From: Candidatus Anderseniibacteriota bacterium
GTDB taxonomy: Bacteria > Patescibacteriota > Andersenbacteria > UBA10190
Length of the DNA: 64,000 nt
Reading direction: 5' to 3'
Assembly: GCA_016197005.1 (NCBI GenBank)
Contig: JACPWO010000001.1
Location: forward strand, 5,106 to 69,105
Shown: piece after piece, positions 1-64,000 of the stretch
Position numbering within the stretch: the stretch's first letter is position 1
How the letters are laid out: each line of letters opens with the position of its first letter
The notes under the pieces: generated by a model
The model's database searches: none
Seen by the model: only the letters and a program-made list of their open reading frames with translations
What the model was told of the DNA's origin: nothing
Position numbers and translations under genes: made by a program

Positions 1-681
1 GCTTGGATAAATGAGCAGCCATTTGATGAGCGTCTCCATATTGCCTCCTGGTATCCTTCCGTAATTTCACCTTTCTTTGAGGGACGCACAATGAGTTTGT
101 CATCACGAGATGACCATAGGGTGGGGTATGTGGTGACGTACCGAAATATGCTGGGGCGAGCCGGTGATACGATTGCGAGTGACGTCCTCGATGAGTTTAG
201 GAATCAGGTGCCCGCTCATACCGTTTATATTCAGGGTATGCCGTACGTTTGGGTGTATACCGTTCTCGGCCCCTATTATTTCCGGCAAAATGTAGGCGAG
301 TTGGTAACTGGTGTTGAAGTAGCTCAAACGGTTCCCATTTCCTTTACTAATTGGAAACAGATTGATTTCGGTCTGGCAACATTTGGTCGGCAGAATACCG
401 CTCCTCTTACGCTCCATATTAGGGAAGAGAAAAATGGACCAGACATCCGTACAGTTACAATTTCAACGGAGAATATTCCAGATCAAGGCTGGCAACCTTT
501 TGAATTTGCCGAAATTCCTAACTCCGCTGGTAAAACATATTATGTCGCGTTGACGAGCGAAATCGGACGACCAGGGAATGCGGTAACAGTTCGCTATTCG
601 AGTGAAGACTTTATGGCTGGTGTGGCTGTGTTTGGCGGCCGCGAGCGCGAAGGAGACTTAGCGTACCGACTCCAACCGTAA
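1..681 (+). CDS. C-terminal part of a GT-C-family membrane glycosyltransferase paralog (5' end lies outside the window)
   Basis: Frame 1 is open from nt 1 with no stop before the listed Met at 91. The translation (…NEQPFDERLHIASWY…VVTYRNMLGRAGD…HTVYIQGMPYVWVYTV) matches the conserved C-terminal domain of the paralogs at 6678..8624, 17968..19461 and 40049..41581. Confidence 0.6.
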   Translation, partial: AWINEQPFDERLHIASWYPSVISPFFEGRTMSLSSRDDHRVGYVVTYRNMLGRAGDTIASDVLDEFRNQVPAHTVYIQGMPYVWVYTVLGPYYFRQNVGELVTGVEVAQTVPISFTNWKQIDFGLATFGRQNTAPLTLHIREEKNGPDIRTVTISTENIPDQGWQPFEFAEIPNSAGKTYYVALTSEIGRPGNAVTVRYSSEDFMAGVAVFGGREREGDLAYRLQP

Positions 682-2488
682 GAAGAGAAATACTTACCCC
701 AAGAAGAAAGCCGGGCGAACGATACTGAAAGATGAGACGATGAGTGCCACCTACTTCTACTATCCAACCAACGCGGTTACTAATATTTTGCGCGGGTTGT
801 CCATTTACTTGCCACCCACTGGCGTAATTCGTATTGAGAATTACTGGTGTATCGGGTGGAGTTTCAACTTTCAATACAACTCGGTTTGGTGACCATTCTT
901 CAATAGTGTATGTTCCGCGTTCGTGCGTTTGTTCATTCTCTATATAGGCTGTGCCGTTGCCAATTTCGTCAGTTACCACTCGGACCGCTGGGGAAGGAGT
1001 AAGTACCGAGCAGTAATTCATACTGCCATATCCTTGGAGAATATCGGTGTACGCTCGAGAGTAGTCAACCTCATTATGACGTGTTTTGTAGGCAAAAGGT
1101 GAGTGTTGTAGTGGTTCCTTGGCGGGTGGTAAGGATTCCAGTGACCGCGGAAGAACAAATGCCTGCTCAGATAAGGGGTAGGACATAGTAAAGAGATCGA
1201 GAGCGATAAGAGCGAGGATTACGTAACTTATACCGCGCGTAGCAGCTTTCTTTTTGTTTTTTATTAAACTCTCCATACCAAATCCGGACAACAAAGAGAT
1301 TGGAATAACAGCGAATAGAACAACACGAGAAATATTCGATCGGGGGAACCACGAAGCTTGATCGAAGAAAGGTTTCAGGGTAGGCCCCGTCGAAGATAGG
1401 AGAATAGCCAGTATGGTACTCATACCAAGTCCAACGACAACGCGCCGCCGCCAATTAAAAATCACTCCGATACACGCCAAAACGGCGGCTACGGGCCCTA
1501 TATATGCCCCATATTCATGCCAACCACTCCCTTGATTTGGAATAACGTTCTCGACTCCATGTAGGTATCGTCCCAAGAAAATTTTGTGGAGTGATCCCAA
1601 CGTAGACGTAGAGCCGGCATACATTTGATCCTGAAACTGAGATAGCCATAGCAACACAGGGATAAGTTTTACCGCTGCCAGTCCTAACGCCCACAAACCA
1701 CTGTGAATATTAACCACCCAAGCATCTTTCTTTCGAGAAGTGAAAAATGGAAGGATAAGAAAAGCGAGAGCAGTGTACATCAGTAGGTAGATGCCGCCTT
1801 GGAAGAAAGTAAAGGCTAAGAAAATACCAGTAATAATATTCCACTTCGTAGATTTTTCGCGGTACGCAGCTAGCCAAGCCCAAAAGATCCACGGAATAAA
1901 CATGGCTGCAAATACATTGGGATGTCCTTCAACAATTTCCAGTAAGGTTACAGAACCAAATGTTGCTACCATACTTGCAACAAGTGAAGAGTACACAGAC
2001 AGGCCCAGACGCTTTCCTAAAAGGAGCATACCAACTCCGCCGACAGCGGTTGCTAGCCAAATAGCGAGTGGAAAGCCGTTTTCAATACCAAAGGCGAGCT
2101 CCACTAAGAAGGTAGGAGTGAAGAAACGAAATTCTGGATCGGCTAGGGCAGCAGTTCCTCCACAGATATATGGATTCCAGTGAGGAAGTTGGTGGTAGGT
2201 AAGAATTGTCTCGCGGTAAGAATGATGGAGAGAAAAATAATAATCCCAATCAGAGATTCCAAGCTGCCCGGTTGAAAACCAAAACCCGAGGGTGGCGAGC
2301 GGGGTAATAGCAACAATAATAAGAGCAGCTAACTGCCAACGCAGACGAGGAAAGAAACGGATAAGCAATATGCCGAGTAGAAATATGCCAGCAACAACCA
2401 CTCCTTGGTGCACGCCAAAGAGGGTATCCGGTGTTATCCTGAGCCACTCAAGGACGAACGTAGATACGGGATTCATAGAGGACGTCAT
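611..2488 (-). CDS. large polytopic membrane protein, family unassigned; N-terminal region is a paralog of 42271..44283
   Basis: 625 aa ORF with more than 10 hydrophobic helices and a roughly 150 aa hydrophilic C-terminal domain. It shares a Trp/Pro-rich N-terminal region with the 42271 protein. No catalytic motif recognised. Confidence 0.55.
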   Translation of the reverse strand: MTSSMNPVSTFVLEWLRITPDTLFGVHQGVVVAGIFLLGILLIRFFPRLRWQLAALIIVAITPLATLGFWFSTGQLGISDWDYYFSLHHSYRETILTYHQLPHWNPYICGGTAALADPEFRFFTPTFLVELAFGIENGFPLAIWLATAVGGVGMLLLGKRLGLSVYSSLVASMVATFGSVTLLEIVEGHPNVFAAMFIPWIFWAWLAAYREKSTKWNIITGIFLAFTFFQGGIYLLMYTALAFLILPFFTSRKKDAWVVNIHSGLWALGLAAVKLIPVLLWLSQFQDQMYAGSTSTLGSLHKIFLGRYLHGVENVIPNQGSGWHEYGAYIGPVAAVLACIGVIFNWRRRVVVGLGMSTILAILLSSTGPTLKPFFDQASWFPRSNISRVVLFAVIPISLLSGFGMESLIKNKKKAATRGISYVILALIALDLFTMSYPLSEQAFVLPRSLESLPPAKEPLQHSPFAYKTRHNEVDYSRAYTDILQGYGSMNYCSVLTPSPAVRVVTDEIGNGTAYIENEQTHERGTYTIEEWSPNRVVLKVETPPDTPVILNTNYASGWQVNGQPAQNISNRVGWIVEVGGTHRLIFQYRSPGFLLGVSISLLTVGVGTLSLLRARGRQTQPHQP

Positions 2489-4712
2489 CTTTTCCTTGAG
2501 AACGATATTTCGCTACTTCCTTCCATGGCTGAGGCATAGAAGTAATATACTCGCTTGAGCTCACATCAATAATAGTATGTATGTCATTGGTCAAGGGCTG
2601 TCCCTCTGCCAAGATCGTCACCTGCGATATAGGAAGATAAAAGGCAGCCGGTAAATTAAGTTCTTCAATAGCATAGCGCGGTTCAAAAGACCGAGCTGTC
2701 CGGGCCGCCCGGTATAAAACAGAATCTAGAGCTGCCGTGAGATTATGGGCATCAATATATTGATCGACTTTATTGAAAATAAGCAGACTACCAATGACAA
2801 AGGGTATGAGAGCGACGACCGGGAAAAAACGAGCGGCCGTAAAACGAACACTGCGAGGCATAAGCGCTGCTGCGATCATCAAGCATATTAAGGGATATGA
2901 CTGTTGGTAGTGCTTCGCAAACGGATGGAACCATATGGCGATAAGTATCTGTGAGGCAAGAACGATCGTCACTAAAATGCCACGCCAGCCGGCGCTTGCG
3001 AGAAAAGGCAGTGGTGCTGCAATTGTGATGCCAGTAATAAGAATGGGAATAAGTTTATTCATTTTTAGCGGATCACTGATTGTCAGCCAGATTGCCCATC
3101 CAATTACAGCAACCGCAATTACGCCAGCAACTATTTGTACTGATTGAGGAAATGACTCTTTTCGCTTCATCCAATAAATCCACCAGGCTAGCACTCCAAA
3201 AAGAGCTAGAGAAACGTACCCGCTGTCATACGGCAAAATGAGTTCTTCTTGTGTCCACGATCGCTTCCACATCGAAGAAATAATTGACCATGTTGAAATG
3301 GAAGCGTCAGAAAAGGCTTGGAATGAGTCAACGATTTGTAGTCGCTCTCCCTCAAAATAGGGTGTGTATACAGGGTTACCATAACGAACTGCATTGTTCA
3401 CAAAAAATGGAAGCACCAGGAAAAAAGCTGGTAAAAACATCCGCAGCAACACAAAAGAAGTTTTTTTAAGTGTGGAATGCTTGGCGCGTATCCCAATAAT
3501 TTCTTGACTGATCGTAGCGGCTAACAAAATAGCAGCTAGCAAAAAGCCTTCCTGTCTTGTCATAGCGGCATATCCGATCGTTATTCCAAAAACAATTTGC
3601 TGCCAGTGATGCCGACGATTGAAAAATAGAACCAGACTTAAAAGAAGGAGACAAGCATATACGGTATACGGCTCAGAACGTAGCGATGTTTCGAAGAAAT
3701 CTCGCTGGAATGCAAGTAAAGCCGCTGCGGTAAAAGCGGCCGGCCATGGGAGTAAAAGACTTCGGGCGAGAAGGTAGACGAGGATAATTGAGAAGGCAGC
3801 AGCGACACTGGAAATACTACGCATGTACGTGTGAGCATCGATCGTGGGATTTATTACTGCTGGAATGAGAAGAATTGGATATCCCGGTAGTCGTTTATCG
3901 AATTCAAACGGATTTTTGAATTTAGTTAGACGAGCAGCAATAGAAAGATAGTTGTAGGGATCTCCTCCGGACACGCCTCCCAAATTCTCCTCGATATCAA
4001 GCCGAAGATTTAACGTAAGTGCCGCTAAACAAATAACTATTCCCAATCCCACTGCTTTCTGCTTTTGTGCTGACAGATGCCGCCAACCAAATCTTCCAAC
4101 GAGGAGAGTAAAAATAATAAGGAGAGCTAACAGCGACCCACTTACTATAAGTTCTTCTTGGTACTTTTCTGCCAAAGTAGCAATTGATTGCCAGAGTGGT
4201 ACTTCCTCTTTAAGACTAACTGCGAACGTTCCTGCCTGTGGTCGCCCCTTCTCGTAGCGAATTAATGATGAAGGGGTGTAATTAGGATCATACCGCCAGC
4301 CAATGGCAGATGCTTGGGTAGCGTCAGGAACGGATACGTCAATACGAAGCTTTCCTGCTTCTGCTGCAATAGGTGGATCTAGGAGAATGGTAGCAAAGCG
4401 ATCGTCGCGAATTTCTGAAGAGGGAATAATGCCAGTAAAAATAGATTGGTCATCTGACAGACGAACTATTTCAATATGAATTGGAGATGGAGACCCCGTA
4501 TTACGAATGTCACTCATGATGAGCCCTAATCCCAATAGTGGTTTTTCAAAAGAAATTTCCTGCGACAAGGTACGATCGCCGAACAGAAGCCGGTGAGTGT
4601 TATATGAGTCGACGCCCTCGCTTATAATTGTTTGCCGTGAGGCTGGTAAGAAAGCTCCGATAATAGCAACGACAACGAGTAGAGTTATACTTAACACGAC
4701 ACGGGTGTTCAT
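2448..4712 (-). CDS. GT-C-fold membrane glycosyltransferase with N-terminal anchored extracytoplasmic domain
   Basis: 754 aa. It has an N-terminal signal-anchor helix, a roughly 200 aa soluble domain, then a multi-TM PMT_2/ArnT-like region (…AAMTRQEGFLLAAILLAA…). The architecture is shared with 12806, 15557 and 37755. Confidence 0.6.
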   Translation of the reverse strand: MNTRVVLSITLLVVVAIIGAFLPASRQTIISEGVDSYNTHRLLFGDRTLSQEISFEKPLLGLGLIMSDIRNTGSPSPIHIEIVRLSDDQSIFTGIIPSSEIRDDRFATILLDPPIAAEAGKLRIDVSVPDATQASAIGWRYDPNYTPSSLIRYEKGRPQAGTFAVSLKEEVPLWQSIATLAEKYQEELIVSGSLLALLIIFTLLVGRFGWRHLSAQKQKAVGLGIVICLAALTLNLRLDIEENLGGVSGGDPYNYLSIAARLTKFKNPFEFDKRLPGYPILLIPAVINPTIDAHTYMRSISSVAAAFSIILVYLLARSLLLPWPAAFTAAALLAFQRDFFETSLRSEPYTVYACLLLLSLVLFFNRRHHWQQIVFGITIGYAAMTRQEGFLLAAILLAATISQEIIGIRAKHSTLKKTSFVLLRMFLPAFFLVLPFFVNNAVRYGNPVYTPYFEGERLQIVDSFQAFSDASISTWSIISSMWKRSWTQEELILPYDSGYVSLALFGVLAWWIYWMKRKESFPQSVQIVAGVIAVAVIGWAIWLTISDPLKMNKLIPILITGITIAAPLPFLASAGWRGILVTIVLASQILIAIWFHPFAKHYQQSYPLICLMIAAALMPRSVRFTAARFFPVVALIPFVIGSLLIFNKVDQYIDAHNLTAALDSVLYRAARTARSFEPRYAIEELNLPAAFYLPISQVTILAEGQPLTNDIHTIIDVSSSEYITSMPQPWKEVAKYRSQGKDDVLYESRIYVRP

Positions 4713-4733: not shown

Positions 4734-6164
4734 ATGAGGACTGATAAAGCAACGATTTTTATACTTTTTACCCTCTTTTGCTTAGCTAATGTAGCATTTC
4801 TTAACCGTGTCCCAGGGTTACTTGGAGATGAAGCTTCGGAAGGTGAAAATGTGTATGAACTTCTTACGAATGATTCGATTACGGTAGTAGGCGAACGATC
4901 ATATATCGGCCCAGCGATTGATTACGTACGTGTGCCTTTTGCCGCTGTTTTTGGATATACAACTCTGGCACTGCGAATACCAATGTTCATATTCTCGGTC
5001 GCCACTTTTTGGTTAGCCTGGAGTGTCCTTAAAAAACAATTTGGGGAAACAACTGCACTGTATGCACTCACATTACTTACGTTTTCTCCTGTCTATGTAC
5101 TCTATCAACGTCTGGGTTGGGCAATTACACTTTTCCCGTTCTTTACATTTCTTATCATTTGGTTGGCACAGCAATCATGGCGAACAAAGTGGTTATGGGT
5201 TGGGGTAGCAGCCGGGTTAGGATTGGCTAATCATATTTTATTTTTACCGATACTGGTTGGATTTATTAGCGGATATATTACTTTTGCTGTGGTGCGGCGC
5301 CTGTTGTTATCCACTAACCGCTCAACTAGTTCCCAGTCATTGTGGCATACGGTTTTACTGGGCGTTATTACCGCATGCGTTGGCTTTTGGGCTGGATTTG
5401 GCATGCAATTTGCTGTGTTGCAATTGCATACGGACGATCAAGGTAGCATCAAGGCTACCACCCAGCTTTTCTCGGAACGGGTGAGCGATTTTATTAGTGC
5501 CGCTCCGCTGTACATCTCCGGCTCATCGTATGTTGCTCAATATATGGGACAGGAATTCACACCAAGTATCACATTACTAGTTGTAATCGTCTTATTAGTT
5601 CTTGTCGGTGTAGCAATTATTTTGAATTGGAGAAATCCGTACTTGTGGGCGTATGTTTTGGGGCTGGTGCTGCATCTCTCTGCCATGCTGTACATGATCG
5701 ATCGATTTAATTTAAGGTACTTCACAACATTTGCCCTAGGCATTTGGCTTCTGGCCGGTATGGGTTTGGGGAGCATATTACGCCGGGTACCGAAAATGCA
5801 GATCGGCGTACCACCTTTAGCGGTCCTGTTGCTTCTTTGGCTCGCAGGAGGTGTTCTTATCCCATTTCTTCACACCGGAGGAGCAGTCGCTGAGTTTTCG
5901 CTTGGTAATCGCACGAATGATGCTGCGGCGTTTGTAGACACCCGACCGCTCATTAGTTGTTTACGAGGGAAAGGTCCACTTTACTCGGAAAATATTCACA
6001 TCTGGAACCGATTACAATATCTAAGTCACTACTATGATGATTTAGTAGTAGTGCCTGAAGATCGAAAGAGAGAGGCAACAGTACAGGTGGCGTATATGGA
6101 TCCGAAAATATCGTATCGAGGAGGAATTTGTCCTGATCTGCAGCATTTCCAGGTGGGAAATTGA
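4734..6164 (+). CDS. GT-C-fold (PMT_2/ArnT-like) membrane glycosyltransferase
   Basis: 476 aa, multi-pass membrane protein with an acidic first loop (LLGDEASEGEN) and a PMT_2-like TM arrangement. The start is only 21 bp from the divergent upstream gene. Confidence 0.55.
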   Translation: MRTDKATIFILFTLFCLANVAFLNRVPGLLGDEASEGENVYELLTNDSITVVGERSYIGPAIDYVRVPFAAVFGYTTLALRIPMFIFSVATFWLAWSVLKKQFGETTALYALTLLTFSPVYVLYQRLGWAITLFPFFTFLIIWLAQQSWRTKWLWVGVAAGLGLANHILFLPILVGFISGYITFAVVRRLLLSTNRSTSSQSLWHTVLLGVITACVGFWAGFGMQFAVLQLHTDDQGSIKATTQLFSERVSDFISAAPLYISGSSYVAQYMGQEFTPSITLLVVIVLLVLVGVAIILNWRNPYLWAYVLGLVLHLSAMLYMIDRFNLRYFTTFALGIWLLAGMGLGSILRRVPKMQIGVPPLAVLLLLWLAGGVLIPFLHTGGAVAEFSLGNRTNDAAAFVDTRPLISCLRGKGPLYSENIHIWNRLQYLSHYYDDLVVVPEDRKREATVQVAYMDPKISYRGGICPDLQHFQVGN

Positions 6165-6618
6165 CAAAAAAGAATAAAGGATTATTGTGTTTGTAGCCGC
6201 GGCGAGTTCAGGCCCGCATTTGCCGCAGGTAAAGGAGTGGTTCTAGCTCGTGCTGGAATCACTCCCGAATCCAAGCCGTTCTTTTCAGGGCTAGAACGGA
6301 TAAGATAATATGGTGTATCGCTGTGGAGGGTACTAGGAATTTGATGTAATTGTTGCATCAAACCATCTACAGCAACCTCGATGGAGAAAAGGCTATGAAG
6401 AGCCTCAGCTGTTTTAAGAAAAATTGAAAACACCTCGGCGCCGGCCATCTTCCTCCACCTCGCCAAGGAGACACCATGAACCGTATTCGCGGTCCCCCGT
6501 GAGTACCCGCTGTCGCGTTGATCCGTTACCACAAGGTGTCGAGTGGACTTTGTCCCTCAGGTGATTCAGCACGCTAGGTCGTTGCTGTCACAATGAAAAT
6601 ACTCGTCACTTGTGCGCC

Positions 6619-6653
6619 GCCCCGCTGCTACATGCACGGGGCTTTCTTTTTTT
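6619..6653 (+). terminator. rho-independent terminator (GCCCCG, 12 nt loop, CGGGGC, then TTTCTTTTTTT)
   Basis: Read directly: a 6 bp GC stem at 6619-6624 / 6637-6642 followed by a U-tract. It lies at the 3' end of the roughly 450 nt non-coding stretch 6165..6677. Confidence 0.5.
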
Positions 6654-6677
6654 ATACAAAGCAGTAGTGTAGTGGGC

Positions 6678-10000: not shown

Positions 10001-10034
10001 CCAACCCCGCTCTAACGCGGGGTTGGTTTTATTA
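10001..10034. terminator. bidirectional rho-independent terminator between convergent genes
   Basis: CCAACCCCGC, TCTAAC loop, GCGGGGTTGG, then TTTTATTAT on the + strand. On the - strand the same hairpin is followed by CTGTTTTGTTTG. The hairpin overlaps the last four codons and the stop of the - strand gene 10012..12816. Confidence 0.6.
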
Positions 10035-15004: not shown

Positions 15005-15015
15005 ATCCTTGATAG

Positions 15016-15534: not shown

Positions 15535-15556
15535 ACTATGTATATCCGTGTGAATT

Positions 15557-54309: not shown

Positions 54310-54310
54310 A

Positions 54311-57184: not shown

Positions 57185-58735
57185 CTATACTTTGCGCCAC
57201 TTTACGAGTTTTCCACGAATAATTGCAAGCACTGTTTCCATTTCTTCCACCTTCCACAGCCAAGCGCCACCAAAGAAGACGACGCACCCAATAAGAGTGG
57301 GTAGGAATAATTGTGTTAGTGAAATTCCTGGAAGTTCTACAGTGCGGATAAATAAAATAACAGCTGCCAGTAAAATTGCGAGACAAGCAGTTTTTAAAAA
57401 CGTTATGTGATGAAACGCCCTGGTAAGATTCGGAATATGTCGACGGAGATAAAAACCATACAAAAGTGCCGTACTTATTGGCACGAGCGAAGAAGCCAGC
57501 GCCAGTCCAGCGTGGCCCATGGGTGGAACTAAAAGCAAGAAGAGGGAAATTGCGACAATCTGAGAGGCGATGGAGACAATAACAGCTGCTTTTGTCTTTT
57601 GTAGAGCCAGTACCGCATGTCCGAAAACTGAACTAATGCCATTAGTTGTCAGCCCAAGTACTAAGAAAAGCAGTGCAATACTCGTCATAGCGGCATCCTG
57701 CTTTGAAAAGGATCCATGCTGATACACAAAATCAATGAGGGGTTCACGCAACAATGCAACGCCAATAACCAAAGGAACTGTGACAAAAGTAATGAGGCGA
57801 ATCGCTGAGCTTATAGTCACCAACATCCCAGCGGCATCTTTTTTACTAGCTTTTTGCGATAGAAGCGGAAAAATAACCAATGTTACCGAATTAAGAAACA
57901 TGATAGTCAGAAGTTGAGTAATTTTTTCCGCAAATTTTAGCGAGGCGAGACTTCCCTCAGTTAAATCAGACACGAGCATACGATATACGATTCCTGCTAC
58001 CTGCGTCACTAATACAGAGAAGATGAAAGGGTAGACCATATACGCCAGTTGGCGAACAATTGGATCACGAATATTAAAGATAAAACGGTACTTAAGTCCG
58101 GCTCTGCGTAGTCCAATCATTAATACTAGAAATTGGAAAAGCGAACCTATGGCCACTCCAATTGCGAGTGCGGCAATTCCCATACGTGGTGCCAGTGTGA
58201 CAATCGCGATAATAGATATGGCTGGTGCCAGAAGGCGCATTGAAGCAGGTAACGCAAACCGCTGAAGTGAATGGAGCATGGAGGTCGCAAACTCAACCAA
58301 AAACAGGAATAGGAACGACGGAAGAAGAATGTAGAGCAAATAGACTGTGAGTTCAAAAGTCTCGGGCGCAAAACCGGGCGCTATGAAATGAATGAAGGGG
58401 CGAGCAAACAATGTAAGAATGGCAATCATCATAATATATAGCACCGCAGTTATATGAAATATATTGAGCGCCATATGCCACGCATCTTGTCGTCGCCCAT
58501 TCGACAGCTTCTGTACAAACATAGGGATAAATACCGCGGTAATTGAGCCTCCTAACAAAAGCTTTGATAGCAGCTCTGAGGTTGATTGCGCCATAAAGAA
58601 TGCATCGGTTTCGGCAGCGGCTCCGAAATAGTAGGCAACCAGCAATTGTAGTACGAAGCCAACCAAGGCTCCCCCAAACGCCGTCAGTCCGATTACACCA
58701 GCATTGCCAGTTGTACGTTCAAACTCTGTTTTCAT
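57185..58735 (-). CDS. MurJ/MviN-like MOP-superfamily flippase
   Basis: 14 predicted TM helices. …VAYYFGAAAETDAFFMAQSTSELLSKLLLGGSITAVFIPMF matches the MurJ N-terminal signature. Confidence 0.65.
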   Translation of the reverse strand: MKTEFERTTGNAGVIGLTAFGGALVGFVLQLLVAYYFGAAAETDAFFMAQSTSELLSKLLLGGSITAVFIPMFVQKLSNGRRQDAWHMALNIFHITAVLYIMMIAILTLFARPFIHFIAPGFAPETFELTVYLLYILLPSFLFLFLVEFATSMLHSLQRFALPASMRLLAPAISIIAIVTLAPRMGIAALAIGVAIGSLFQFLVLMIGLRRAGLKYRFIFNIRDPIVRQLAYMVYPFIFSVLVTQVAGIVYRMLVSDLTEGSLASLKFAEKITQLLTIMFLNSVTLVIFPLLSQKASKKDAAGMLVTISSAIRLITFVTVPLVIGVALLREPLIDFVYQHGSFSKQDAAMTSIALLFLVLGLTTNGISSVFGHAVLALQKTKAAVIVSIASQIVAISLFLLLVPPMGHAGLALASSLVPISTALLYGFYLRRHIPNLTRAFHHITFLKTACLAILLAAVILFIRTVELPGISLTQLFLPTLIGCVVFFGGAWLWKVEEMETVLAIIRGKLVKWRKV

Positions 58736-59934
58736 AAAGCTAGTTCAATTACGCGAGCATACACAGCTAGCAAATCAAGAAGTGCTAAGAATGTAAGAGC
58801 ATAAAGGATTAACTCAGCTATTTTTCCATGCGAACGTAGATAGGAAGAGATACCCGCTAAGCCAACAGCACTCGTATACGCAATTGCAAGAACAGTCAGA
58901 ATAGGAGTGATGAAGCATCCAATTGTTATAAAGATGATAGATGACCCAAACACTCTTCTACTTTGTCGCCACAACAAAATGAGGCCGATACCGGTGCAGA
59001 TAAGTGCGGGGATGCCAATATATGCACCGATCGGCATAACCGCAATCTGATTGGGATCAAGAAATACATCTTTAAGATGTCCAAGTGAGGTTAGTCCTGT
59101 CCAAGGTACTCTCCCGGCTATTACTAAAGCCCAAAATGTTGTAAAAGCCGCAATATGGGCTCCAAACAAAGTTGCTGGTGGACGTAGCGAACGACGCTTT
59201 AGCAAAAACAACACACCCCACACAATGCCCGCTTGTAAAACAACGAGAAGAAAAGATTGAATACTTACGTCACGTACTAAGAGTGGGAGAGATGCGGACA
59301 CCGACAGTCCGATTGCGTATAGCGGATACAACAGGTGCTTTGCAGAACGATGCCAGACGATAAGAAAAGTAGCCGCGATGAGTAGTAATCCTCCCATTTG
59401 TAATGTAATTGCTGGTCGAACTGACATAAATACCTCGTATGCAGCGGGACTCGATTGTGGAGCTCCATCGATAAACAAAACGGCATCGCGATTAAAAGTC
59501 TCATCCTGTTGGCGCTGCATAAGTCCCACTTTTCCCGAAAGGGAAGGGGGTACAGAAATTGCCAAAACTAATTTCTCGCGATGAACGGTTTCAAAAGGTG
59601 AAGATAGTCGCAAGAAAACCGGAGCGTTAGCATTTAAAAAGGATGACGGAAATACTTGTTGACCAATATTTTCCCCACTCCGTCGCAGGTTCAGCGTTAT
59701 GGTATCTACGGGTATGTCTTGGACAAGTGGTTTTACATACACCCCTACTCGACTAATATTAGCGGCAGAATTCACAAATTCCTGCTCGTAGATTTTGTCT
59801 GATATAAGTGGCACTACCAGACTTGCATCCTCTGAGGGAGATAAGACAATAATTTGTCGATCAGCTTGAATAAGCAGTAGTCCGACTGCGGTTGCTGCCA
59901 GCAGTAGCGCACCAATTACTGTGCGATATGTCAT
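58732..59934 (-). CDS. membrane protein, hypothetical (N-terminal TM, roughly 170 aa soluble domain, then about 7 TM helices)
   Basis: The start is moved to the internal ATG (MTYRTVIGALLL…), which forms an ATGA overlap with the stop of the upstream small ORF. Confidence 0.45.
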   Translation of the reverse strand: MTYRTVIGALLLAATAVGLLLIQADRQIIVLSPSEDASLVVPLISDKIYEQEFVNSAANISRVGVYVKPLVQDIPVDTITLNLRRSGENIGQQVFPSSFLNANAPVFLRLSSPFETVHREKLVLAISVPPSLSGKVGLMQRQQDETFNRDAVLFIDGAPQSSPAAYEVFMSVRPAITLQMGGLLLIAATFLIVWHRSAKHLLYPLYAIGLSVSASLPLLVRDVSIQSFLLVVLQAGIVWGVLFLLKRRSLRPPATLFGAHIAAFTTFWALVIAGRVPWTGLTSLGHLKDVFLDPNQIAVMPIGAYIGIPALICTGIGLILLWRQSRRVFGSSIIFITIGCFITPILTVLAIAYTSAVGLAGISSYLRSHGKIAELILYALTFLALLDLLAVYARVIELAL

Positions 59935-60107
59935 AGCGGTCGTCGCCATAACACACCAACTGCTGCCACCACACCAATACTCAATAGAATCGTGGTCAGA
60001 GAACTAGAAAAAATGGCGGGGTGAAACCAACGTGCAATACCAACCAATGCCGCTGTTAGGAATGCGGCCCAACTCGTGACGAATAAAATTGAAGAAGAAT
60101 GCATCAT
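59931..60107 (-). CDS. unlisted small ORF: 58 aa two-helix membrane protein
   Basis: MMHSSSILFVTSWAAFLTAALVGIARWFHPAIFSSSLTTILLSIGVVAAVGVLWRRPL. The start ATG overlaps the stop of the upstream gene (ATGA), and the stop TGA overlaps the ATG of the downstream gene (ATGA). Confidence 0.35.
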   Translation of the reverse strand: MMHSSSILFVTSWAAFLTAALVGIARWFHPAIFSSSLTTILLSIGVVAAVGVLWRRPL

Positions 60108-60673
60108 TGCGCTCGCTCACGCCTAAGAACACTGCGAATATAGTCCTTTGTTTCAGCAATCGTTGGCCAGGTATACCTTACCCGAGCAGATAACTCACGT
60201 ACTTCCCAGGAGGCAGTTTGGTTTATTCCAGCATCAATATCCGTCGGAGTGTCAGTTTCTGCAAAAAACATAAGATCAATTGAACGGTCAGTCTCCTGAA
60301 ACTTATTAGTAAGCGGTACAGTAATCGTCCGCTCCTGCCATTCATGCGCATTTCCAGCCGTCCAAAGTACTACCGGTGGATAGCTTAGCCAGAAATCATT
60401 TTCTCGAACTCCGACGGTAAGATTTTTCGTATTACCAGGATGGAATCGTATTGTTAACTCCAGCTCCTTCATAAACACCGGTTCGCGTAAATAGATATCC
60501 GCATGAGCAAGCTTCTCACTTATCTGAACGCTGTCATCTAGGCGAGGATATGGGATGCCAGCAATTGACTCGAGAGCAGAGACTTCTCGAGGACCACGCT
60601 GAGCAACATCAAAACAAAAACCAGCCACGATAAGCAGTACGACAACCCCTCCAATTTTTAGCCCGGTGTTCAT
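60104..60673 (-). CDS. membrane-anchored extracytoplasmic protein, hypothetical
   Basis: N-terminal TM helix (GGVVVLLIVAGFCF), then a roughly 160 aa soluble domain. Confidence 0.45.
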   Translation of the reverse strand: MNTGLKIGGVVVLLIVAGFCFDVAQRGPREVSALESIAGIPYPRLDDSVQISEKLAHADIYLREPVFMKELELTIRFHPGNTKNLTVGVRENDFWLSYPPVVLWTAGNAHEWQERTITVPLTNKFQETDRSIDLMFFAETDTPTDIDAGINQTASWEVRELSARVRYTWPTIAETKDYIRSVLRRERAQ

Positions 60674-62124
60674 TTCTTAAGAAAACTGAGGCGGGGGTGG
60701 ATACTAGCAAGTAGTGCCCGATCACTCGGTTTAACTTCTCCTAAAATCCACAACACTACGATATAGAGGCCAAGTAATACTACATATTGAAGAGGGAGCA
60801 AGAATGGAGAAACTTCCCAAACATATGTAGGCAAAACGGCTGCCGCGGTCGCAATAACAATGTTAATTGTGCTCTTTACCGGATAGGGAATACGGAAAGT
60901 GGAGAAAATATATATCGTTAGCGCAATTAAACCAACAAAAGCAGCAATGGTTGTCTGCCAAGCCGCTCCTACGAGTTGGTACCGAGGAATAAGAATAAAG
61001 CCAGCAATTAAGCTAACAATTATCATGAGAATAGTAATTCCAAGTGCAGTCTTAGCCTTATTTGCTCCGGCGGCAATATTAGCGAGAAGTAAATAGAAAG
61101 AAAGAATACCTACCCCTAACATCAGAACAGTAAGTGCTGGTGCCCCCGGTACAAAAGAAGACGAGAAGAATAAGATAACGAGCTGTTCACTAGTGGCCGC
61201 TGCCAACGTAATTGACGGAATAATGAGAGCAATAAGATATCGCAACATTCGACTGATAAAAGAGACGGCTTGAGTTTGTGATGCACCCGGCTTCGTCAAC
61301 TTTGAGACACTGGGCAAAACGATAAATGATAAGCCTTGAAGTAAGAAGTATGAGATACGCGAGAGCGTAACGGCAGCGTTGTAGTAACCAGCCTGCACAT
61401 CATCACGGAGAAGTGATTTCACCATAAAAAGATCAATGCTCATCAGTAGTTGTAACCCCGCCAGAATAAGGACATACATTCCAGCAAAAGAGAGAAACTC
61501 CTTAAGCGGTAATTTCGCAGTGGTCTTTTTATTACGAGTTGCTCGCGTCCAATACCACCCAAGCATAGCGGCAATAACTCCACCGATAGCAAATCCCGAA
61601 AAGGCACCAAAAACATCAAAGGCGTAGAGCAGCGCAACCGCTCCAGCTAGCTTGGCGATAGCGTAAATAATAGTAAGGAGTGCCTGCCGGTTAAAGCGAT
61701 GCAAGCCGCTAAAGTACTGAACGTATATGGGGTAAAAAGCTTGCAAAAAGAGTACGGCGGCAACGAAAGCAATAAGTGGCGTTAACGTAGGGTCATTTAA
61801 AAGAAAAGCAATACCTGGTGAAAATATGGCCACAATTGCGGACAATCCAAACGCCAGGAGTGTTTGGATTTTAAGCGCCTGTCGTAAAATACTTTCAGCA
61901 TGAACTTCATCTTGAGCGACAAAACGAGAAACGGCACTTGGTACTCCAAGCGTAAGTAAAATACCGAGAATTGTTTGCAAAGATAAAACAACGCCATATA
62001 TTCCATACGGCCCGGGTCCGAGGAAACGACCAATCCACAAGTGCGTAACGTACCCCAGCATGAGCACAACGGCTTGGGCTATAAGGAGGGCCATTGCCCC
62101 CGTTATTCGAGATTGCTTTGGCAT
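60670..62124 (-). CDS. Wzx-like polysaccharide/oligosaccharide flippase (MOP superfamily)
   Basis: 484 aa with 12-14 TM helices. The N-terminal LMLGYVTHLWIGRFLGPGPYGIYG is typical of 'polysaccharide biosynthesis protein' flippases. Confidence 0.6.
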   Translation of the reverse strand: MPKQSRITGAMALLIAQAVVLMLGYVTHLWIGRFLGPGPYGIYGVVLSLQTILGILLTLGVPSAVSRFVAQDEVHAESILRQALKIQTLLAFGLSAIVAIFSPGIAFLLNDPTLTPLIAFVAAVLFLQAFYPIYVQYFSGLHRFNRQALLTIIYAIAKLAGAVALLYAFDVFGAFSGFAIGGVIAAMLGWYWTRATRNKKTTAKLPLKEFLSFAGMYVLILAGLQLLMSIDLFMVKSLLRDDVQAGYYNAAVTLSRISYFLLQGLSFIVLPSVSKLTKPGASQTQAVSFISRMLRYLIALIIPSITLAAATSEQLVILFFSSSFVPGAPALTVLMLGVGILSFYLLLANIAAGANKAKTALGITILMIIVSLIAGFILIPRYQLVGAAWQTTIAAFVGLIALTIYIFSTFRIPYPVKSTINIVIATAAAVLPTYVWEVSPFLLPLQYVVLLGLYIVVLWILGEVKPSDRALLASIHPRLSFLKK

Positions 62125-62142
62125 AGGCTTACTGTATTTCCT

Positions 62143-64000
62143 TCAGGGAATTCGCGCCAATCCAAGCGCGATTAGATCAATTCCAATTGGTTTTTCTTCT
62201 GGATTGAGCATTTTAAGCTCAAGAAGACCTTTGTCGTTATATATAACTGAGTGTGCGGGAATAGTAAGAGGTTGGCCCATTGTAAGTTCAACACGAGAGT
62301 CGTCAGGAAGAACAACCTCTAACTTTTCTGGTCCATATACAGCCTTTACGAGTAATTCAAGATTCACTGTTGGATGTCCGGTATCTTCTTGATCCCATAG
62401 TACTGCAACATAACTGCGAGGATTGAATACAAGAGGAATTACGGAAGCGGACACGGAACGGAATGTTGCTGTACGTTCACGCTGCGGCGAAGAGAGACGG
62501 CTGCTTCGTACACTAGCCGGGAGATGAGCAAACGTATCCTCGCCATCACCGATATCGTTAGCGAGCGTGCTTGTTTTGAGCAACCACGCCGTTTCTTCAT
62601 TGAGGGTACGTTTAGATTCAACAGAAAATAGAATAACGTCAGCACCGCGCGCCTTTTCTTGCAAGATTGGATTGCTCGCAAAGGCGCTATCACTACTCTT
62701 TTCAACTCCCGTTATGTACTTAATATTGTGTTTTTGCAGTAGCTCGCCAATTTCTGACATCGAACCAAGTGAAAAGATTTTCTCGAAGTCCAGCTGTTTC
62801 AAATATAAATCCATCCGCGTCTCTGATTGTCTAGCTTCATTCATCTGCCGCTGAAGATCAGCCGCAATGCGAGTATACATAGGTTTACCCGACAGGATGA
62901 GCCACGAAGAAGAGCGCCGGTTATAGTCGTCGACAAGGACAGCGGCTCGGGAACTGTCTTGTGCGATTATGCCGGCTAAGTACTCGTGTTCAGGTAGTAA
63001 AGTAGAGTTTGTTCGAATCGTATGATTAGTTGTCGCGAATGCGCGCTGGGTTGTTTGAAAAGCAGGCCAGCCCACCAAGATAATTAACGCAATATAACCC
63101 AGACGGCGAGGTAGTTTTGAAAACTCTGAAAAATAATGCCGTAATTGCATAATAAAGTACGCAGCTAGGATGCTTAACGGTACAACGGAGTAAAAAAGCG
63201 CCCGTACCGGAGGAATATCAATAAAAAGACGAGGGCCTTGTGATAGGAGAAGAAAAACTACGACACTAATAGTAAAAGCGATGATCTGTGGATTACGCGA
63301 ACCGAAAGCTTGCTTAGCGAGAAGAATAAATCCAGCCAACCCCAAGAAAAACCAAACTCCACCGGTTATAGCTGGGTAATCTGTTAGATTTGGAACATCA
63401 GCTAAAAGATGGGGGGCAGTAGTAAATAAATGAGGGAGCTTATCATAAAAACCAAATGGAATAGCTGCTACCAAAAGGAGAATAATAAGAGCGCCACCCG
63501 ACACCACACTATAAAAGGCCTGTCGTGAATGGTGGCGCAAACGACTAATTCGGACAAGAAAGAAGGAGGCAGCTACTGGCACAAGAGTGAAGACGGCCAT
63601 AAATACAGAAAACTGATGCGTCAAAATGAGTGCAGCAAGACAGGTAACAGCGAGCGAGAAATCCTGCCAAGAAAATTTCTTAATAAGACGAAGGCCAAGT
63701 AACAAAAGTCCAAATAAAAATATTTCACCAAATATATTTTGATAGTGATAACCCGGTTCCCGCAGGTATCGTAAAAAACGAGTATTTGTCAAAACAAAAA
63801 AGGCAGCTACCAGTGGCAAGATAATGTGCGAATCACCCTTAAATAACTCCCGGCTAATAGTTGCCGCTAACCACGCAACAACAATGCAACCGACAATGGC
63901 GAACACCCCAACGCTCATAAGTGGATACGGCGACAGGGTCATAACGAGGGCAGTTAGCGTGTGCAAGCCTGGGGTAAAAAAATCTCCAGGGTCTCGGTTG
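62143..64000 (-). CDS. polytopic membrane protein with C-terminal soluble domain (5' end lies outside the window)
   Basis: The listed start at 63966 is a TTG. The frame stays open to nt 64000 with no stop (…NRDPGDFFTPG-LHTLTALVM…). About 10 TM helices, then a roughly 300 aa hydrophilic region. Confidence 0.5.
   Translation of the reverse strand, partial: NRDPGDFFTPGLHTLTALVMTLSPYPLMSVGVFAIVGCIVVAWLAATISRELFKGDSHIILPLVAAFFVLTNTRFLRYLREPGYHYQNIFGEIFLFGLLLLGLRLIKKFSWQDFSLAVTCLAALILTHQFSVFMAVFTLVPVAASFFLVRISRLRHHSRQAFYSVVSGGALIILLLVAAIPFGFYDKLPHLFTTAPHLLADVPNLTDYPAITGGVWFFLGLAGFILLAKQAFGSRNPQIIAFTISVVVFLLLSQGPRLFIDIPPVRALFYSVVPLSILAAYFIMQLRHYFSEFSKLPRRLGYIALIILVGWPAFQTTQRAFATTNHTIRTNSTLLPEHEYLAGIIAQDSSRAAVLVDDYNRRSSSWLILSGKPMYTRIAADLQRQMNEARQSETRMDLYLKQLDFEKIFSLGSMSEIGELLQKHNIKYITGVEKSSDSAFASNPILQEKARGADVILFSVESKRTLNEETAWLLKTSTLANDIGDGEDTFAHLPASVRSSRLSSPQRERTATFRSVSASVIPLVFNPRSYVAVLWDQEDTGHPTVNLELLVKAVYGPEKLEVVLPDDSRVELTMGQPLTIPAHSVIYNDKGLLELKMLNPEEKPIGIDLIALGLARIP

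What the first reader, a model, noticed from the sequence alone, without database searches (positions are those of the whole stretch)
1..64000. Exceptionally dense cell-surface glycosylation island with an expanded repertoire of GT-C-fold membrane glycosyltransferases
Within 64 kb there are at least 14 large polytopic GT-C/PMT_2/YfhO-like genes, about 9 GT4, 3 GT2 and 2 GT9 glycosyltransferases, 6 SAM methyltransferases and 2 DegT aminotransferases. There are also an epimerase, a UGM-like flavoprotein, a deacetylase and two flippases. No housekeeping genes interrupt the island. Five of the GT-C genes carry the loop-1 'DE' motif typical of protein O-mannosyltransferase/ArnT-type enzymes. That points to lipid-linked glycosylation of proteins or wall polymers on the outer face of the membrane, on a scale far beyond a normal O-antigen or capsule locus. 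The paralog sub-families may form an uncharacterised surface-decoration system.
Basis: partly seen in the sequence, partly recalled or inferred. Interest (0 to 1): 0.8.

Follow-up and report, generated by a model that had tools for sequence, protein, structure and literature searches.

The report
Giant GT-C glycosylation island, Andersenbacteria
A tiny-genome groundwater bacterium (Candidatus Andersenbacteria) devotes a contiguous stretch of at least 77 kb to making surface sugars, and almost half of the 64-kb window codes for membrane glycosyltransferases that work on the outer face of the cell membrane, an unusually heavy and so far undescribed investment in its surface coat.

Summary
The window is part of a 492-kb contig of a Candidatus Andersenbacteria MAG (GCA_016178385.1). 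Per-run assemblies cover about 37 kb of the window in three segments and are 100% identical there.

Of 50 genes, 14 large polytopic proteins are tied to the GT-C (PMT_2/PMT/YfhO) superfamily by Pfam, profile-profile comparison or AlphaFold plus Foldseek. Three more (g1, g47, g50) are partial or probable members, and three further polytopic proteins lie in the flanks. GT-C genes fill 42-48% of the window.

Also present:
- 7-8 GT4, 3 GT2, 2 GT9 and 5 methyltransferases
- 2 DegT aminotransferases, an SDR epimerase, a flavoprotein and a deacetylase
- a MurJ equivalog and a Wzx-type flippase

Two GT2s best match polyprenyl-phosphate-sugar synthases. The paralogs are old, and the island is syntenic in other Andersenbacteria.

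A new detail is a small pilin-like protein (g9, g27). It was flanked by GT-C genes in all 11 loci picked by its own sequence.

The most likely function is multi-enzyme glycosylation of a wall glycan and/or surface proteins outside the cytoplasm, from lipid-linked sugars. The acceptor is unknown. I rate it a new variant of a known kind, interest about 0.62.

The parts
1..681 (+). g1: C-terminal third of a 639-aa family-A GT-C that starts left of the window. It carries a beta-sandwich module.
   Evidence: The frame is open from base 1. The full protein in L008 has 10 TM segments and a DE motif, is 30% identical to g5 (3e-73), and hits PMT_2 at 9e-5.
611..2488 (-). g2: YfhO-like GT-C, about 12 TM segments.
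   Evidence: blastp to g7 at 6e-9. Orthologues are 52% identical in L015.
2448..4712 (-). g3: GT-C with an N-terminal beta-sandwich after TM1. D251 (GGDPYNY) is invariant.
   Evidence: Five relatives hit PMT_2. AlphaFold pLDDT is 88.8. Foldseek hits include ALG9, AglB, EmbA/B, ArnT, PglB, AftB and Pmt4.
4734..6164 (+). g4: PMT_2 GT-C with a DE motif at residues 32-33.
   Evidence: PMT_2 at 2.6e-8, 34.7 bits.
6612..8624 (+). g5: family-A PMT-like GT-C with DE at 59-60 and a C-terminal beta-sandwich.
   Evidence: PMT_2 at 1.5e-7. Alignment A1. The module is shared with g1 and g3.
8732..9973 (+). g6: secreted DUF11 surface protein. It has a (Thr-Pro)n linker and a C-terminal hydrophobic tail ending KRRYF. 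It is a candidate O-glycosylation substrate.
   Evidence: DUF11 at 2.5e-12. Sequence. The linker is the only DNA repeat in the window. It is not conserved at this position in L010 or L015.
10012..12816 (-). g7: YfhO-family GT-C, 934 aa, DD at 41-42.
   Evidence: YfhO at 1.1e-13, 51 bits against a cut-off of 28.5.
12806..15049 (-). g8: N-family GT-C (TM1, beta-sandwich, then GT-C core), DD at 285-286.
   Evidence: PMT_2 at 2.3e-5. hhalign N-family against A at 98.5%.
15016..15537 (-). g9: pilin-like membrane-anchored protein of 172 aa with 4 conserved Cys. It sits just upstream of g8 on the same strand (the longest-ORF GTG start of g8 overlaps it by 34 nt; the start called in the record leaves a 12-nt gap) and is divergent from g10.
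   Evidence: The A3 profile hits type IV pilins and GspG in the PDB at 1.5e-5 to 7e-3. It is flanked by GT-C genes in 11 of 11 independent loci.
15557..17971 (+). g10: N-family GT-C, DE at 267-268.
   Evidence: PMT_2 at 5e-4. hhalign. Orthologue 38% identical in L013.
17968..19461 (-). g11: family-A PMT-like GT-C, DE at 33-34.
   Evidence: PMT at 5.4e-7, 29.8 bits against a cut-off of 22.7.
19550..21131 (+). g12 is a SAM methyltransferase. g13 is a GT2 with two C-terminal TM segments, a candidate polyprenyl-phosphate-sugar synthase.
   Evidence: Pfam. The best NCBIfam hits of g13 are AglJ, dolichyl-P hexose transferase, PpgS and ArnC over its full length, all below the equivalog cut-offs. TM segments.
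21134..23061 (-). g14 is an unknown protein of 215 aa. g15 is a PMT_2 GT-C with DE at 40-41.
   Evidence: PMT_2 at 4.5e-12. g14 has no family hit.
23147..25542 (+). g16 is an FAD oxidoreductase (PRK07208 family, weakly UGM-like). g17 is an SDR epimerase/dehydratase.
   Evidence: NF005548 at 412 bits, Epimerase at 1.6e-53.
25539..27603 (-). g18 is an FrhB/FdhB-like protein. g19 is a methyltransferase.
   Evidence: Pfam.
27460..29196 (+). g20: GT-C of the g3 type, without the N-terminal module.
   Evidence: hhalign g3 against g20 at 99.4%. Weak Agl23 hit.
29159..34689 (-). g21 DegT aminotransferase, g22 GT4, g23 DegT-like, g24 and g25 methyltransferases.
   Evidence: DegT at 1e-114, with PseC and ArnB-like best hits. 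GT4.
34614..36128 (+). g26: family-A GT-C, DE at 30-31.
   Evidence: PMT_2 at 2.3e-5. Alignment A1.
36125..40043 (-). Operon g29 (N-family GT-C, DE at 262-263), g28 (GT4), g27 (pilin-like paralogue of g9, 42% identical).
   Evidence: The same g31-g28-g29-g30 block is in L013, with g28 75% identical.
40049..41581 (+). g30: family-A PMT-like GT-C, DE at 45-46.
   Evidence: PMT at 2.8e-9, 37.3 bits. 50% identical orthologue in L013.
41535..42203 (-). g31: SAM methyltransferase.
42271..44283 (+). g32: GT-C with no Pfam hit, invariant D39 (GGDPWQ), and a C-terminal beta-sandwich resembling CBM6/CBM35.
   Evidence: AlphaFold pLDDT 87.7. Foldseek top 21 are STT3, PglB, AftD, ArnT, AftA, EmbB and AglB. 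hhalign to the YfhO-like family at 98.6%.
44280..49509 (+). g33, g34, g35 and g37 are GT4 glycosyltransferases. g36 (47693-48289, minus strand) is an unknown small membrane protein.
   Evidence: The block is syntenic in L013, L081 and L082.
49488..57181 (-). g38 GT9, g39 GT4, g40 GT2, g41 polysaccharide deacetylase, g42 TagF/BFO_1060-like, g43 GT2 (PpgS-like, no TM segment), g44 GT9, g45 weak GT4.
57185..58735 (-). g46: MurJ-family MOP flippase.
   Evidence: PF03023 at 5.8e-73. TIGR01695 at 254 bits against a cut-off of 235.55.
58732..60673 (-). g47: TM1, beta-sandwich, then 8 TM segments related to the YfhO-like core. It has no EL1 acidic motif. g48: TM segment plus an unknown 160-aa domain.
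   Evidence: The family has 80 cluster representatives and no Pfam or PDB hit. hhalign to family Y at 98.2% and to the g3 N-terminal domain at 97.6%.
60670..62124 (-). g49: Wzx-type (Polysacc_synt) MOP flippase.
   Evidence: PF01943 at 2.7e-23.
62143..64000 (-). g50: C-terminal 607 residues (up to 618 codons of the frame are open to the window edge) of a 765-aa, 14-TM protein. It is a probable GT-C-like protein and runs off the window.
   Evidence: The frame is open to the window end. The full protein hits DUF6541 at 1.8e-6, 27 bits against a cut-off of 29. No link to the other families by hhalign.

Best explanation
The window is the centre of a conserved cell-envelope glycan super-locus of Candidatus Andersenbacteria (CPR/Patescibacteria). 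The proposed mechanism has five steps.

1. Cytoplasmic enzymes make and tailor nucleotide sugars: the SDR g17, flavoprotein g16, DegT aminotransferases g21 and g23, five methyltransferases and deacetylase g41.
2. Cytoplasmic GT-B and GT-A transferases (GT4 x7-8, GT9 x2, g40, g42) build a lipid-linked oligosaccharide or polymer.
3. The GT2 enzymes g13 and g43 load single sugars onto polyprenyl phosphate.
4. The MOP flippases g46 and g49 carry lipid-linked intermediates to the outer face of the membrane.
5. There, 14 to 17 GT-C enzymes each add one kind of residue or linkage from polyprenyl-phosphate sugars to a growing wall-associated glycan, and possibly also to surface proteins. These enzymes use an acidic residue in the first outer loop. 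Many carry a beta-sandwich (CBM-like) module, and some are paired with a pilin-like partner protein (g9, g27).

The logic is that of the GtrABC/Arn/YfhO 'three-component' systems, multiplied many times, as in mycobacterial arabinogalactan and LAM assembly.

Shown: family and fold assignments, gene content, conservation, gene coupling. Inferred: donors, topology of action, acceptor, division of labour.
For: - GT-C identity: Pfam, hhalign network, two confident AlphaFold models whose full-length Foldseek hits are only GT-C enzymes.
- An acidic loop-1 motif is present in all 14 firm members.
- Donor-synthase candidates g13 and g43 best match AglJ, dolichyl-P-hexose transferase, PpgS and ArnC. A related locus, L081, carries the classic GT2 + DUF2304 + large membrane protein triad and a PMT_2-GtrA fusion.
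- Two MOP flippases are present. A MATE/MOP flippase is the carrier in the published three-component pentofuranose system (PMC11194591).
- CBM-like or beta-sandwich modules are shared across GT-C families, as in EmbA/B/C and AftD.
- Orthologues (38-75% identity) are closer than paralogues (25% or less, up to 41%), and gene order is kept in other Andersenbacteria. The set is therefore old and maintained by selection.
- The window has no recent DNA repeats.
Against: - No initiating phosphoglycosyltransferase (WecA/MraY or WbaP type), no recognisable Wzy polymerase and no GtrA-type small flippase were found in the window.
- g13 and g43 are below every equivalog cut-off, so donor synthesis is a family-level inference.
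- No biochemical, expression or glycan-structure data exist for any CPR GT-C.
- PMT and PMT_2 similarity and the pilin-like partner would fit protein acceptors equally well.
- g46 may simply be the housekeeping lipid II flippase.
Confidence: 0.55

Rival explanations
1. The island is mainly a protein O-glycosylation machine. The PMT-like GT-C enzymes transfer sugars from polyprenyl phosphate directly to Ser/Thr of surface proteins. Candidate targets are the pilin-like proteins g9 and g27, the Thr-Pro-linker protein g6, and S-layer or pilus proteins encoded elsewhere. This would resemble actinobacterial Pmt, or TfpW on Pseudomonas group IV pilins.
For: - Eight proteins have a DE motif in loop 1, and PMT (PF02366) hits are above threshold for g11 and g30. 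The family-A profile hits yeast Pmt1 in the PDB.
- The g9-like pilin-like gene is flanked by GT-C genes in 11 of 11 loci chosen only by g9 similarity. That arrangement resembles pilA-tfpW (bioRxiv 10.1101/2020.04.19.049825).
- g6 has a 30-residue Thr/Pro linker inside the GT-C-rich arm.
Against: - g9 and g27 lack a prepilin-peptidase site: there is no Gly at -1.
- g6 is not conserved at this position in related loci.
- No PMT_4TMC or MIR domain was detected.
- CBM-like modules, and the many cytoplasmic GT4/GT9 enzymes and flippases, point to a glycan acceptor.
- PMT_2 also covers ArnT, which acts on a lipid.
Confidence: 0.3
2. The island is a glycan-diversification locus. The many GT-C paralogues are alternative, strain-variable decorators that change surface epitopes non-stoichiometrically, as phage-derived Gtr systems do. 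Their purpose would be to evade phages or to switch host specificity, not to build one obligatory structure.
For: - The GT-C-rich arm is rearranged between Andersenbacteria genomes, while the g32-g42 block is fixed.
- The window has about 20 strand switches, so many small independent transcription units.
- Pilin glycosylation is known to block pilus-specific phages (bioRxiv 10.1101/150227).
Against: - The paralogues are ancient, and each has clear orthologues in other genomes.
- There are no repeats, IS elements, invertible segments or phase-variable tracts.
- Composition is uniform, so there is no sign of recent horizontal acquisition.
Confidence: 0.12
3. The finding is an artefact, or the proteins are misassigned. 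Either the island is an assembly or binning chimera, or the large membrane proteins are transporters or other non-glycosyltransferase proteins.
For: - Six of the polytopic proteins (g2, g3, g20, g32, g47, g50) have no Pfam hit above threshold.
- The sequence comes from a MAG.
Against: - Three independent per-run assemblies are 100% identical to the window over the segments they cover, about 37 kb.
- Synteny holds in at least five other genomes or contigs.
- Fold searches return GT-C enzymes as all the significant full-length matches.
Confidence: 0.02

Closest known systems
Three-component extracytoplasmic glycosylation systems (GtrABC, ArnC/ArnEF/ArnT, CsbB/GtcA/YfhO, and the pentofuranose system of Kelly et al. 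2024; PMC11194591)
   Same: It has a GT2-type polyprenyl-phosphate-sugar synthase candidate (g13, g43), a flippase and a GT-C transferase with an acidic loop-1 residue. It also has DegT, SDR and deacetylase enzymes that recall ArnB, ArnA and ArnD.
   Different: - It has 14-17 GT-C enzymes from at least 6 deeply diverged sub-families at one locus, instead of one.
- No GtrA-type small flippase was found in the window; only MOP flippases are present.
- The GT-C genes are coupled to pilin-like proteins.
- The host is a CPR bacterium.
Mycobacterial and corynebacterial arabinogalactan, LAM and PIM assembly (EmbA/B/C, AftA-D, PimE and others)
   Same: - Many GT-C enzymes each make one linkage outside the membrane from polyprenyl-phosphate sugars.
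- The GT-C enzymes carry periplasmic CBM-like domains.
- AftD, AftA, AftB and Emb are among the best structural matches.
- An FAD enzyme and an SDR sit next to a donor synthase, which recalls DprE1 and DprE2.
   Different: - The mycobacterial genes are scattered over a 4.4-Mb genome (my own knowledge); here they are packed into one island of at least 77 kb.
- There is no sequence-level membership in the Emb or Aft Pfam families.
- g16 belongs to a different flavoprotein family from DprE1.
Protein O-mannosyltransferases (GT39: eukaryotic Pmt1/2/4, actinobacterial Pmt)
   Same: It has the GT-C fold, a DE motif in loop 1, and PF02366 hits above threshold for g11 and g30. The family-A profile hits Pmt1 (6P25) at 1e-3.
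   Different: It has no MIR domain and no PMT_4TMC domain. Identity is very low. There are many paralogues with added beta-sandwich modules. A protein acceptor is unproven.
TfpW-PilA(IV) pilin arabinosylation in Pseudomonas aeruginosa
   Same: A GT-C gene lies directly beside a pilin-type gene. The g9/g27 N-terminal helix, with its conserved Glu, aligns to pilin alpha1.
   Different: g9 and g27 have no prepilin leader or Gly at -1, and they have a distinct 4-Cys globular domain. They are flanked by two GT-C genes of different families. There is no evidence that they are glycosylated or assembled into fibres.
Tandem family-A GT-C arrays in Chloroflexota (loci L041, L028, L020)
   Same: The same GT-C sub-family (24-30% identical to g5) occurs as 5-7 consecutive paralogues.
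   Different: The Chloroflexota arrays seen here are made of one sub-family and are uncharacterised. The Andersenbacteria island mixes at least 6 sub-families with full sugar-tailoring and flippase sets.

Membership tests
GT-C glycosyltransferase superfamily | Polytopic membrane protein with the GT-C fold (conserved N-terminal TM module plus variable module). | tested here: met
   The g32 and g3 AlphaFold models (pLDDT 87.7 and 88.8) have GT-C enzymes as all their significant full-length Foldseek hits. Ten other proteins hit PMT_2, PMT or YfhO. g2 and g20 are linked by blastp and hhalign.
GT-C glycosyltransferase superfamily | Acidic catalytic residue(s) in the first extracytoplasmic loop. | tested here: met
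   DE in 8 proteins, DD in g7 and g8. Asp is invariant in the g3 family (D251) and the g32 family (D39). g2 has SDWD and g20 has AGD. g47 lacks such a loop.
GT-C glycosyltransferase superfamily | Use of a lipid-phosphate-linked sugar donor. | not testable with these tools
   Only indirect evidence: the GT2 candidates g13 and g43.
Protein O-mannosyltransferase (GT39, PF02366 plus PF16192) | PMT domain above the Pfam gathering score. | tested here: inconclusive
   Met for g11 (29.8 bits) and g30 (37.3 bits) against a cut-off of 22.7. g5 is below it at 20.1 bits. The others hit only PMT_2.
Protein O-mannosyltransferase (GT39, PF02366 plus PF16192) | C-terminal PMT_4TMC domain and, in eukaryotes, MIR domains. 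| tested here: not met
   No PF16192 or MIR hit in any protein at E up to 0.01.
Protein O-mannosyltransferase (GT39, PF02366 plus PF16192) | Transfer of mannose to Ser/Thr of secreted proteins. | not testable with these tools
   The candidate substrates g6, g9 and g27 are suggested only by their position.
YfhO family (PF09586) | Profile match above the gathering score. | tested here: met
   g7 scores 51 bits against a cut-off of 28.5, covering the first half of the model (4-444 of 835). g2, g32 and the g47 core are related only by blastp or hhalign.
Three-component glycosylation system (synthase, flippase, GT-C) | GT2 polyprenyl-phosphate-sugar synthase. | tested here: inconclusive
   The top NCBIfam hits of g13 and g43 are AglJ, DPhHxTase, PpgS and ArnC over their full length, but all are far below the equivalog cut-offs.
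Three-component glycosylation system (synthase, flippase, GT-C) | Dedicated flippase for the lipid-linked monosaccharide (GtrA/ArnEF type or MATE type). | tested here: inconclusive
   No PF04138 or DUF2304 protein is in the window. MOP flippases g46 and g49 are present, and g46 also hits MatE. GtrA and DUF2304 genes are present in the related locus L081.
Wzx/Wzy-dependent O-antigen or capsule locus | Initiating phosphoglycosyltransferase, Wzx flippase, Wzy polymerase and a chain-length regulator. | tested here: not met
   Only Wzx (g49) was found. There is no PF00953, PF02397, Wzy_C or Wzz hit. g47 is a possible but unproven polymerase-like protein.
Type IV pilin / pseudopilin (for g9 and g27) | N-terminal hydrophobic alpha-helix with a conserved Glu (E5). 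| tested here: met
   The A3 profile hits Geobacter PilA (1.5e-5), GspG (2e-3) and PilA (7e-3), with the invariant Glu aligned to E5.
Type IV pilin / pseudopilin (for g9 and g27) | Class III signal peptide with Gly at -1 for prepilin peptidase. | tested here: not met
   In 12 family members the protein starts 6-9 residues before the Glu, and none has Gly at -1. No Pfam pilin domain scores above 0.05.

The most novel reading that the evidence does not exclude
Andersenbacteria, and perhaps other CPR bacteria and Chloroflexota, build a lineage-specific envelope layer almost entirely outside the cytoplasm. A battery of 14 to 20 GT-C enzymes, of which 14-16 are firmly assigned, works with leaderless pilin-like membrane proteins (the g9/g27 family). 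These proteins would serve as dedicated acceptors or scaffolds: a glycosylated pilin-like coat, or a GT-C/pilin-like holoenzyme, a pairing not described for any GT-C. In an episymbiont with a genome of about 1 Mb, this coat would be the main determinant of host recognition and phage resistance.
Probability: 0.2. Interest if true: 0.85.

Novelty: new variant of a known kind. Interest (0 to 1): 0.62.

Why it matters
CPR/Patescibacteria are ultra-small, mostly uncultured episymbionts. Their genomes average about 0.92 Mb (PMC13293708), and their attachment to hosts depends on the cell surface. Published accounts say only that they have 'several' or '20' glycosyltransferases per genome (PMC8080830, PMC5220378).

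If this genome is of typical size, an island of at least 77 kb would be roughly 8% of it (range about 4-18%). The island includes 14-17 GT-C enzymes in the window alone. That would make extracytoplasmic glycosylation one of the largest functional investments of the cell.

The island also offers several useful things:
- a compact, co-located and conserved set of at least six uncharacterised GT-C sub-families, two of which had no Pfam hit in the window proteins, for studying GT-C specificity
- a new genetic coupling between GT-C genes and pilin-like genes that can be tested directly
- a link to unexplained tandem GT-C arrays in Chloroflexota
- candidate markers and targets for lectin- or antibody-based capture of these uncultured cells

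Tried and rejected
- **Transporter or other family for the Pfam-negative membrane proteins.** Rejected by hhalign and by fold search.
- **Assembly chimera.** Rejected over the covered segments.
- **Recent tandem duplication or a mobile element.** No direct or inverted DNA repeats, tRNAs, IS-like genes or Rfam hits were found, and the paralogues share 41% identity or less.
- **Chloroflexota origin**, my first guess from GC content and the DUF11 domain. Rejected: NCBI names the proteins Candidatus Andersenbacteria, and the best relatives are CPR.
- **g47 as a Wzy or O-antigen-ligase member.** No Pfam or PDB support in 43 family members. It shows only YfhO-core similarity.
- **g50.** It could not be linked to the other families and has only a near-threshold DUF6541 hit. 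I could not verify what DUF6541 is.
- **Sequence search of g32 and g3 against the PDB.** Nothing found.
- **The search for homologous proteins for g27.** Only 2 hits, because of the word-index limit. The first metagenome scan with alignment A3 failed, so I repeated it with the tighter alignment A6.
- **Walking further along the contig.** Not possible, because look-ups are restricted to window proteins. The true ends of the island are therefore unknown.
- **Literature searches.** Searches for GT-C, PMT or mannosyltransferase together with CPR, Patescibacteria, Parcubacteria or Andersenbacteria found nothing relevant.

Full report
**Source and integrity**

The window equals positions 292,319-356,318 of contig JACOTL010000006.1 (492 kb) of NCBI assembly GCA_016178385.1. 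NCBI labels its proteins 'Candidatus Andersenbacteria bacterium', locus tags HYR90_03005 to HYR90_03155. This is a member of the CPR/Patescibacteria.

Contigs assembled independently from three sequencing runs (Logan) are 100% identical to the window over 1-7765, 19159-40391 and 56041-64000. GC content is flat at 0.44-0.49. There are no tRNAs, Rfam hits or DNA repeats apart from a Thr-Pro linker. The island is therefore not a chimera over the covered segments and not a recent duplication.

**Gene content**

Fifty genes fill 98% of the window.

- Ten large polytopic proteins hit PMT_2, PMT or YfhO.
- The six without a hit were examined one by one:
  - g2 is related to the YfhO protein g7.
  - Relatives of g3 hit PMT_2, and one is named GT39. 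Its AlphaFold model (pLDDT 88.8) matches ALG9, AglB, Emb, ArnT, PglB, AftB and Pmt4.
  - g20 is a g3 relative (hhalign 99.4%).
  - The g32 model (pLDDT 87.7) has its 21 best PDB matches all among GT-C enzymes, and a CBM6/35-like C-terminal domain.
  - g47 combines the shared beta-sandwich with a TM core that aligns to the YfhO-like family, but it lacks an acidic first loop.
  - g50 (765 aa in the record) is just under the DUF6541 threshold.
- g1 is the end of a 639-aa family-A GT-C that begins outside the window.

This gives 14 firm GT-C genes, one partial and two probable, covering 42-48% of the window. All 14 have an acidic motif in the first outer loop.

- 7 clear GT4 plus one weak
- 5 methyltransferases
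- 3 GT2 and 2 GT9
- 2 DegT aminotransferases
- an SDR epimerase and a PRK07208-family flavoprotein with weak UGM similarity
- an FrhB-like protein, a deacetylase and a TagF-like protein
- a Wzx-type flippase, and a flippase that passes the MurJ equivalog cut-off

**Extent**

The island continues on both sides.

- Left: a GT4, an epimerase, an 861-aa N-family GT-C and the 639-aa family-A GT-C.
- Right: the rest of g50, a GT4, two ATP-grasp enzymes around a MATCAP homologue, a methyltransferase, a GT2 and another polytopic protein.

It is therefore at least 77 kb long, and the ends were not reached. Within that span there are 20 polytopic proteins that are GT-C or possibly GT-C. Sixteen are firmly linked to the superfamily: the 14, the 639-aa protein containing g1, and the 861-aa protein. 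g47 and g50 are probable members. The partial 582-aa right-flank protein has no family hit at all.

**Families and age**

Profile-profile comparison joins the proteins into one network with at least six sub-families:
- A: g5, g11, g26, g30
- N: g8, g10, g29
- g3/g20
- S: g4, g15
- Y: g2, g7
- g32

Paralogues share 41% identity or less, mostly under 30%. Orthologues in other Andersenbacteria share 38-75%, often in the same order. Conserved blocks include g8-g9-g10-g11, g31-g28-g29-g30, and g32 through g42. The repertoire is therefore old and maintained. The g32-g42 block is fixed, and the GT-C-rich arm is rearranged between genomes.

A module of about 110-130 residues, which is a beta-sandwich in the g3 model, is shared by several families. 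It sits after TM1 in g3, g8, g10, g47 and the 861-aa protein, and at the C-terminus in g5 and g1.

**Pilin-like partner**

g9 and g27 (42% identical) are small proteins with one N-terminal helix and a 4-Cys outer domain. A profile of the family matches the N-terminal helix of type IV pilins and GspG, with an invariant Glu aligned to pilin E5. There is no Gly at -1 and no leader.

In 11 of 11 metagenome loci retrieved only by similarity to this protein, it is flanked by GT-C genes. A g10-like gene is transcribed divergently upstream, in all 9 loci where upstream sequence encoded a recognisable gene. A g7- or g8-like gene follows directly downstream on the same strand, in 8 loci. The window has the same layout. 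This coupling is the most original element found.

**Mechanism**

The established model for GT-C enzymes has three components: a GT2 loads a sugar on polyprenyl phosphate, a flippase moves it, and a GT-C transfers it outside the membrane (PMC11194591). The island has candidates for each step:
- synthases: g13 and g43 best match AglJ, dolichyl-P-hexose transferase, PpgS and ArnC
- flippases: the MOP proteins g46 and g49
- transferases: the GT-C set

It also has a large set of cytoplasmic transferases and sugar-tailoring enzymes. The number of GT-C enzymes, their CBM-like modules and the structural matches to AftD, AftA, AftB and Emb point to stepwise building or branching of a complex wall-associated glycan, as in mycobacteria. 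I take this as the best explanation (0.55).

Protein O-glycosylation is a serious, non-exclusive rival (0.3). It is suggested by the PMT hits, the DE motif, the pilin-like partner and the Thr-Pro-linker protein g6.

Three things limit the model:
- No initiating phosphoglycosyltransferase, Wzy or GtrA-type flippase is in the window.
- All donor and acceptor assignments are inferred.
- g46 may simply be the housekeeping lipid II flippase.

**Context and novelty**

The literature I could search says only that CPR bacteria have elaborate surfaces with 'several' or about 20 glycosyltransferases per genome (PMC8080830, PMC5220378). I found no report of GT-C expansion or of this island.

Patescibacteria genomes average 0.92 Mb (PMC13293708). 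At that size an island of at least 77 kb would be about 8% of the genome, but the size of this genome is not known to me.

Tandem arrays of 5-7 family-A GT-C genes also occur in Chloroflexota. The theme is therefore wider than one lineage.

The kind of system is known: GT-C-dependent extracytoplasmic glycosylation. The new features are its scale, its compaction, two sub-families whose window proteins have no Pfam hit, and the pilin-like coupling. I rate it a new variant of a known kind, with interest 0.62.

Noticed in passing
L005:1463-7697 (record about 356.7-363 kb, just right of the window): Inside the glycan island lies a bacterial homologue of MATCAP, the microtubule-associated tyrosine carboxypeptidase (PF08014, E=1e-25). 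It sits between an ATP-grasp_3 protein and a RimK-like ATP-grasp ligase. This looks like a peptide-tail ligase/trimming set of unknown target.
   Followed up: partly
window 15016-15537 (-), 36125-36631 (-); loci L084-L094: The leaderless pilin-like protein family (g9/g27) has an invariant Glu aligned to pilin E5 and four conserved Cys. It always sits beside GT-C genes: divergent from a g10-like gene and directly upstream of a g7- or g8-like gene.
   Followed up: yes
window 57185-58735 (-): g46 passes the NCBIfam MurJ (lipid II flippase) equivalog cut-off and sits in the middle of the 13-gene minus-strand operon g38-g50. Either the housekeeping flippase is embedded in the island, or a MurJ paralogue has been recruited for glycan export.
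   Followed up: partly
window 8732-9973 (+), repeat at 9380-9463: g6 is a secreted DUF11 protein with a (Thr-Pro)n linker, which is the only DNA repeat in the window. Its C-terminal hydrophobic tail ends KRRYF and resembles a sorting signal. It is absent from the same position in related loci.
   Followed up: partly
window 20259-25542: The FAD oxidoreductase g16 (PRK07208 family) and the SDR g17 sit next to the putative polyprenyl-P-sugar synthase g13 and the GT-C g15. The layout recalls DprE1/DprE2 epimerisation of a lipid-linked sugar, but g16 belongs to a different flavoprotein family. This is speculation only.
   Followed up: no
N-termini of g3, g8, g10, g47; C-termini of g5, g1; C-terminus of g32 (residues about 560-670): A shared module of about 110-130 residues, a beta-sandwich in the g3 model, has been shuffled between different GT-C sub-families, sometimes N-terminal and sometimes C-terminal. 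g1 has a weak DUF4082 hit. The g32 C-terminal domain resembles CBM6/CBM35.
   Followed up: partly
loci L041, L028, L020 (Chloroflexota genomes): Runs of 5-7 consecutive family-A GT-C paralogues, each about 500-1000 aa, occur in Anaerolineae and Chloroflexia MAGs. These arrays are uncharacterised and related to the window's g5.
   Followed up: partly
window 21134-21781 (-), 47693-48289 (-), 60104-60673 (-), 6182-6448 (-): g14, g36, g48 and an 88-aa ORF have no family hit in Pfam. g36 and g48 have N-terminal TM segments. Their function is unknown.
   Followed up: no
L081:1-9978: A related Andersenbacteria contig carries a PMT_2-GtrA fusion protein and a GT2 + DUF2304 + 680-aa membrane protein triad next to the g32 block. 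These are classic three-component modules that are missing from the window itself.
   Followed up: no
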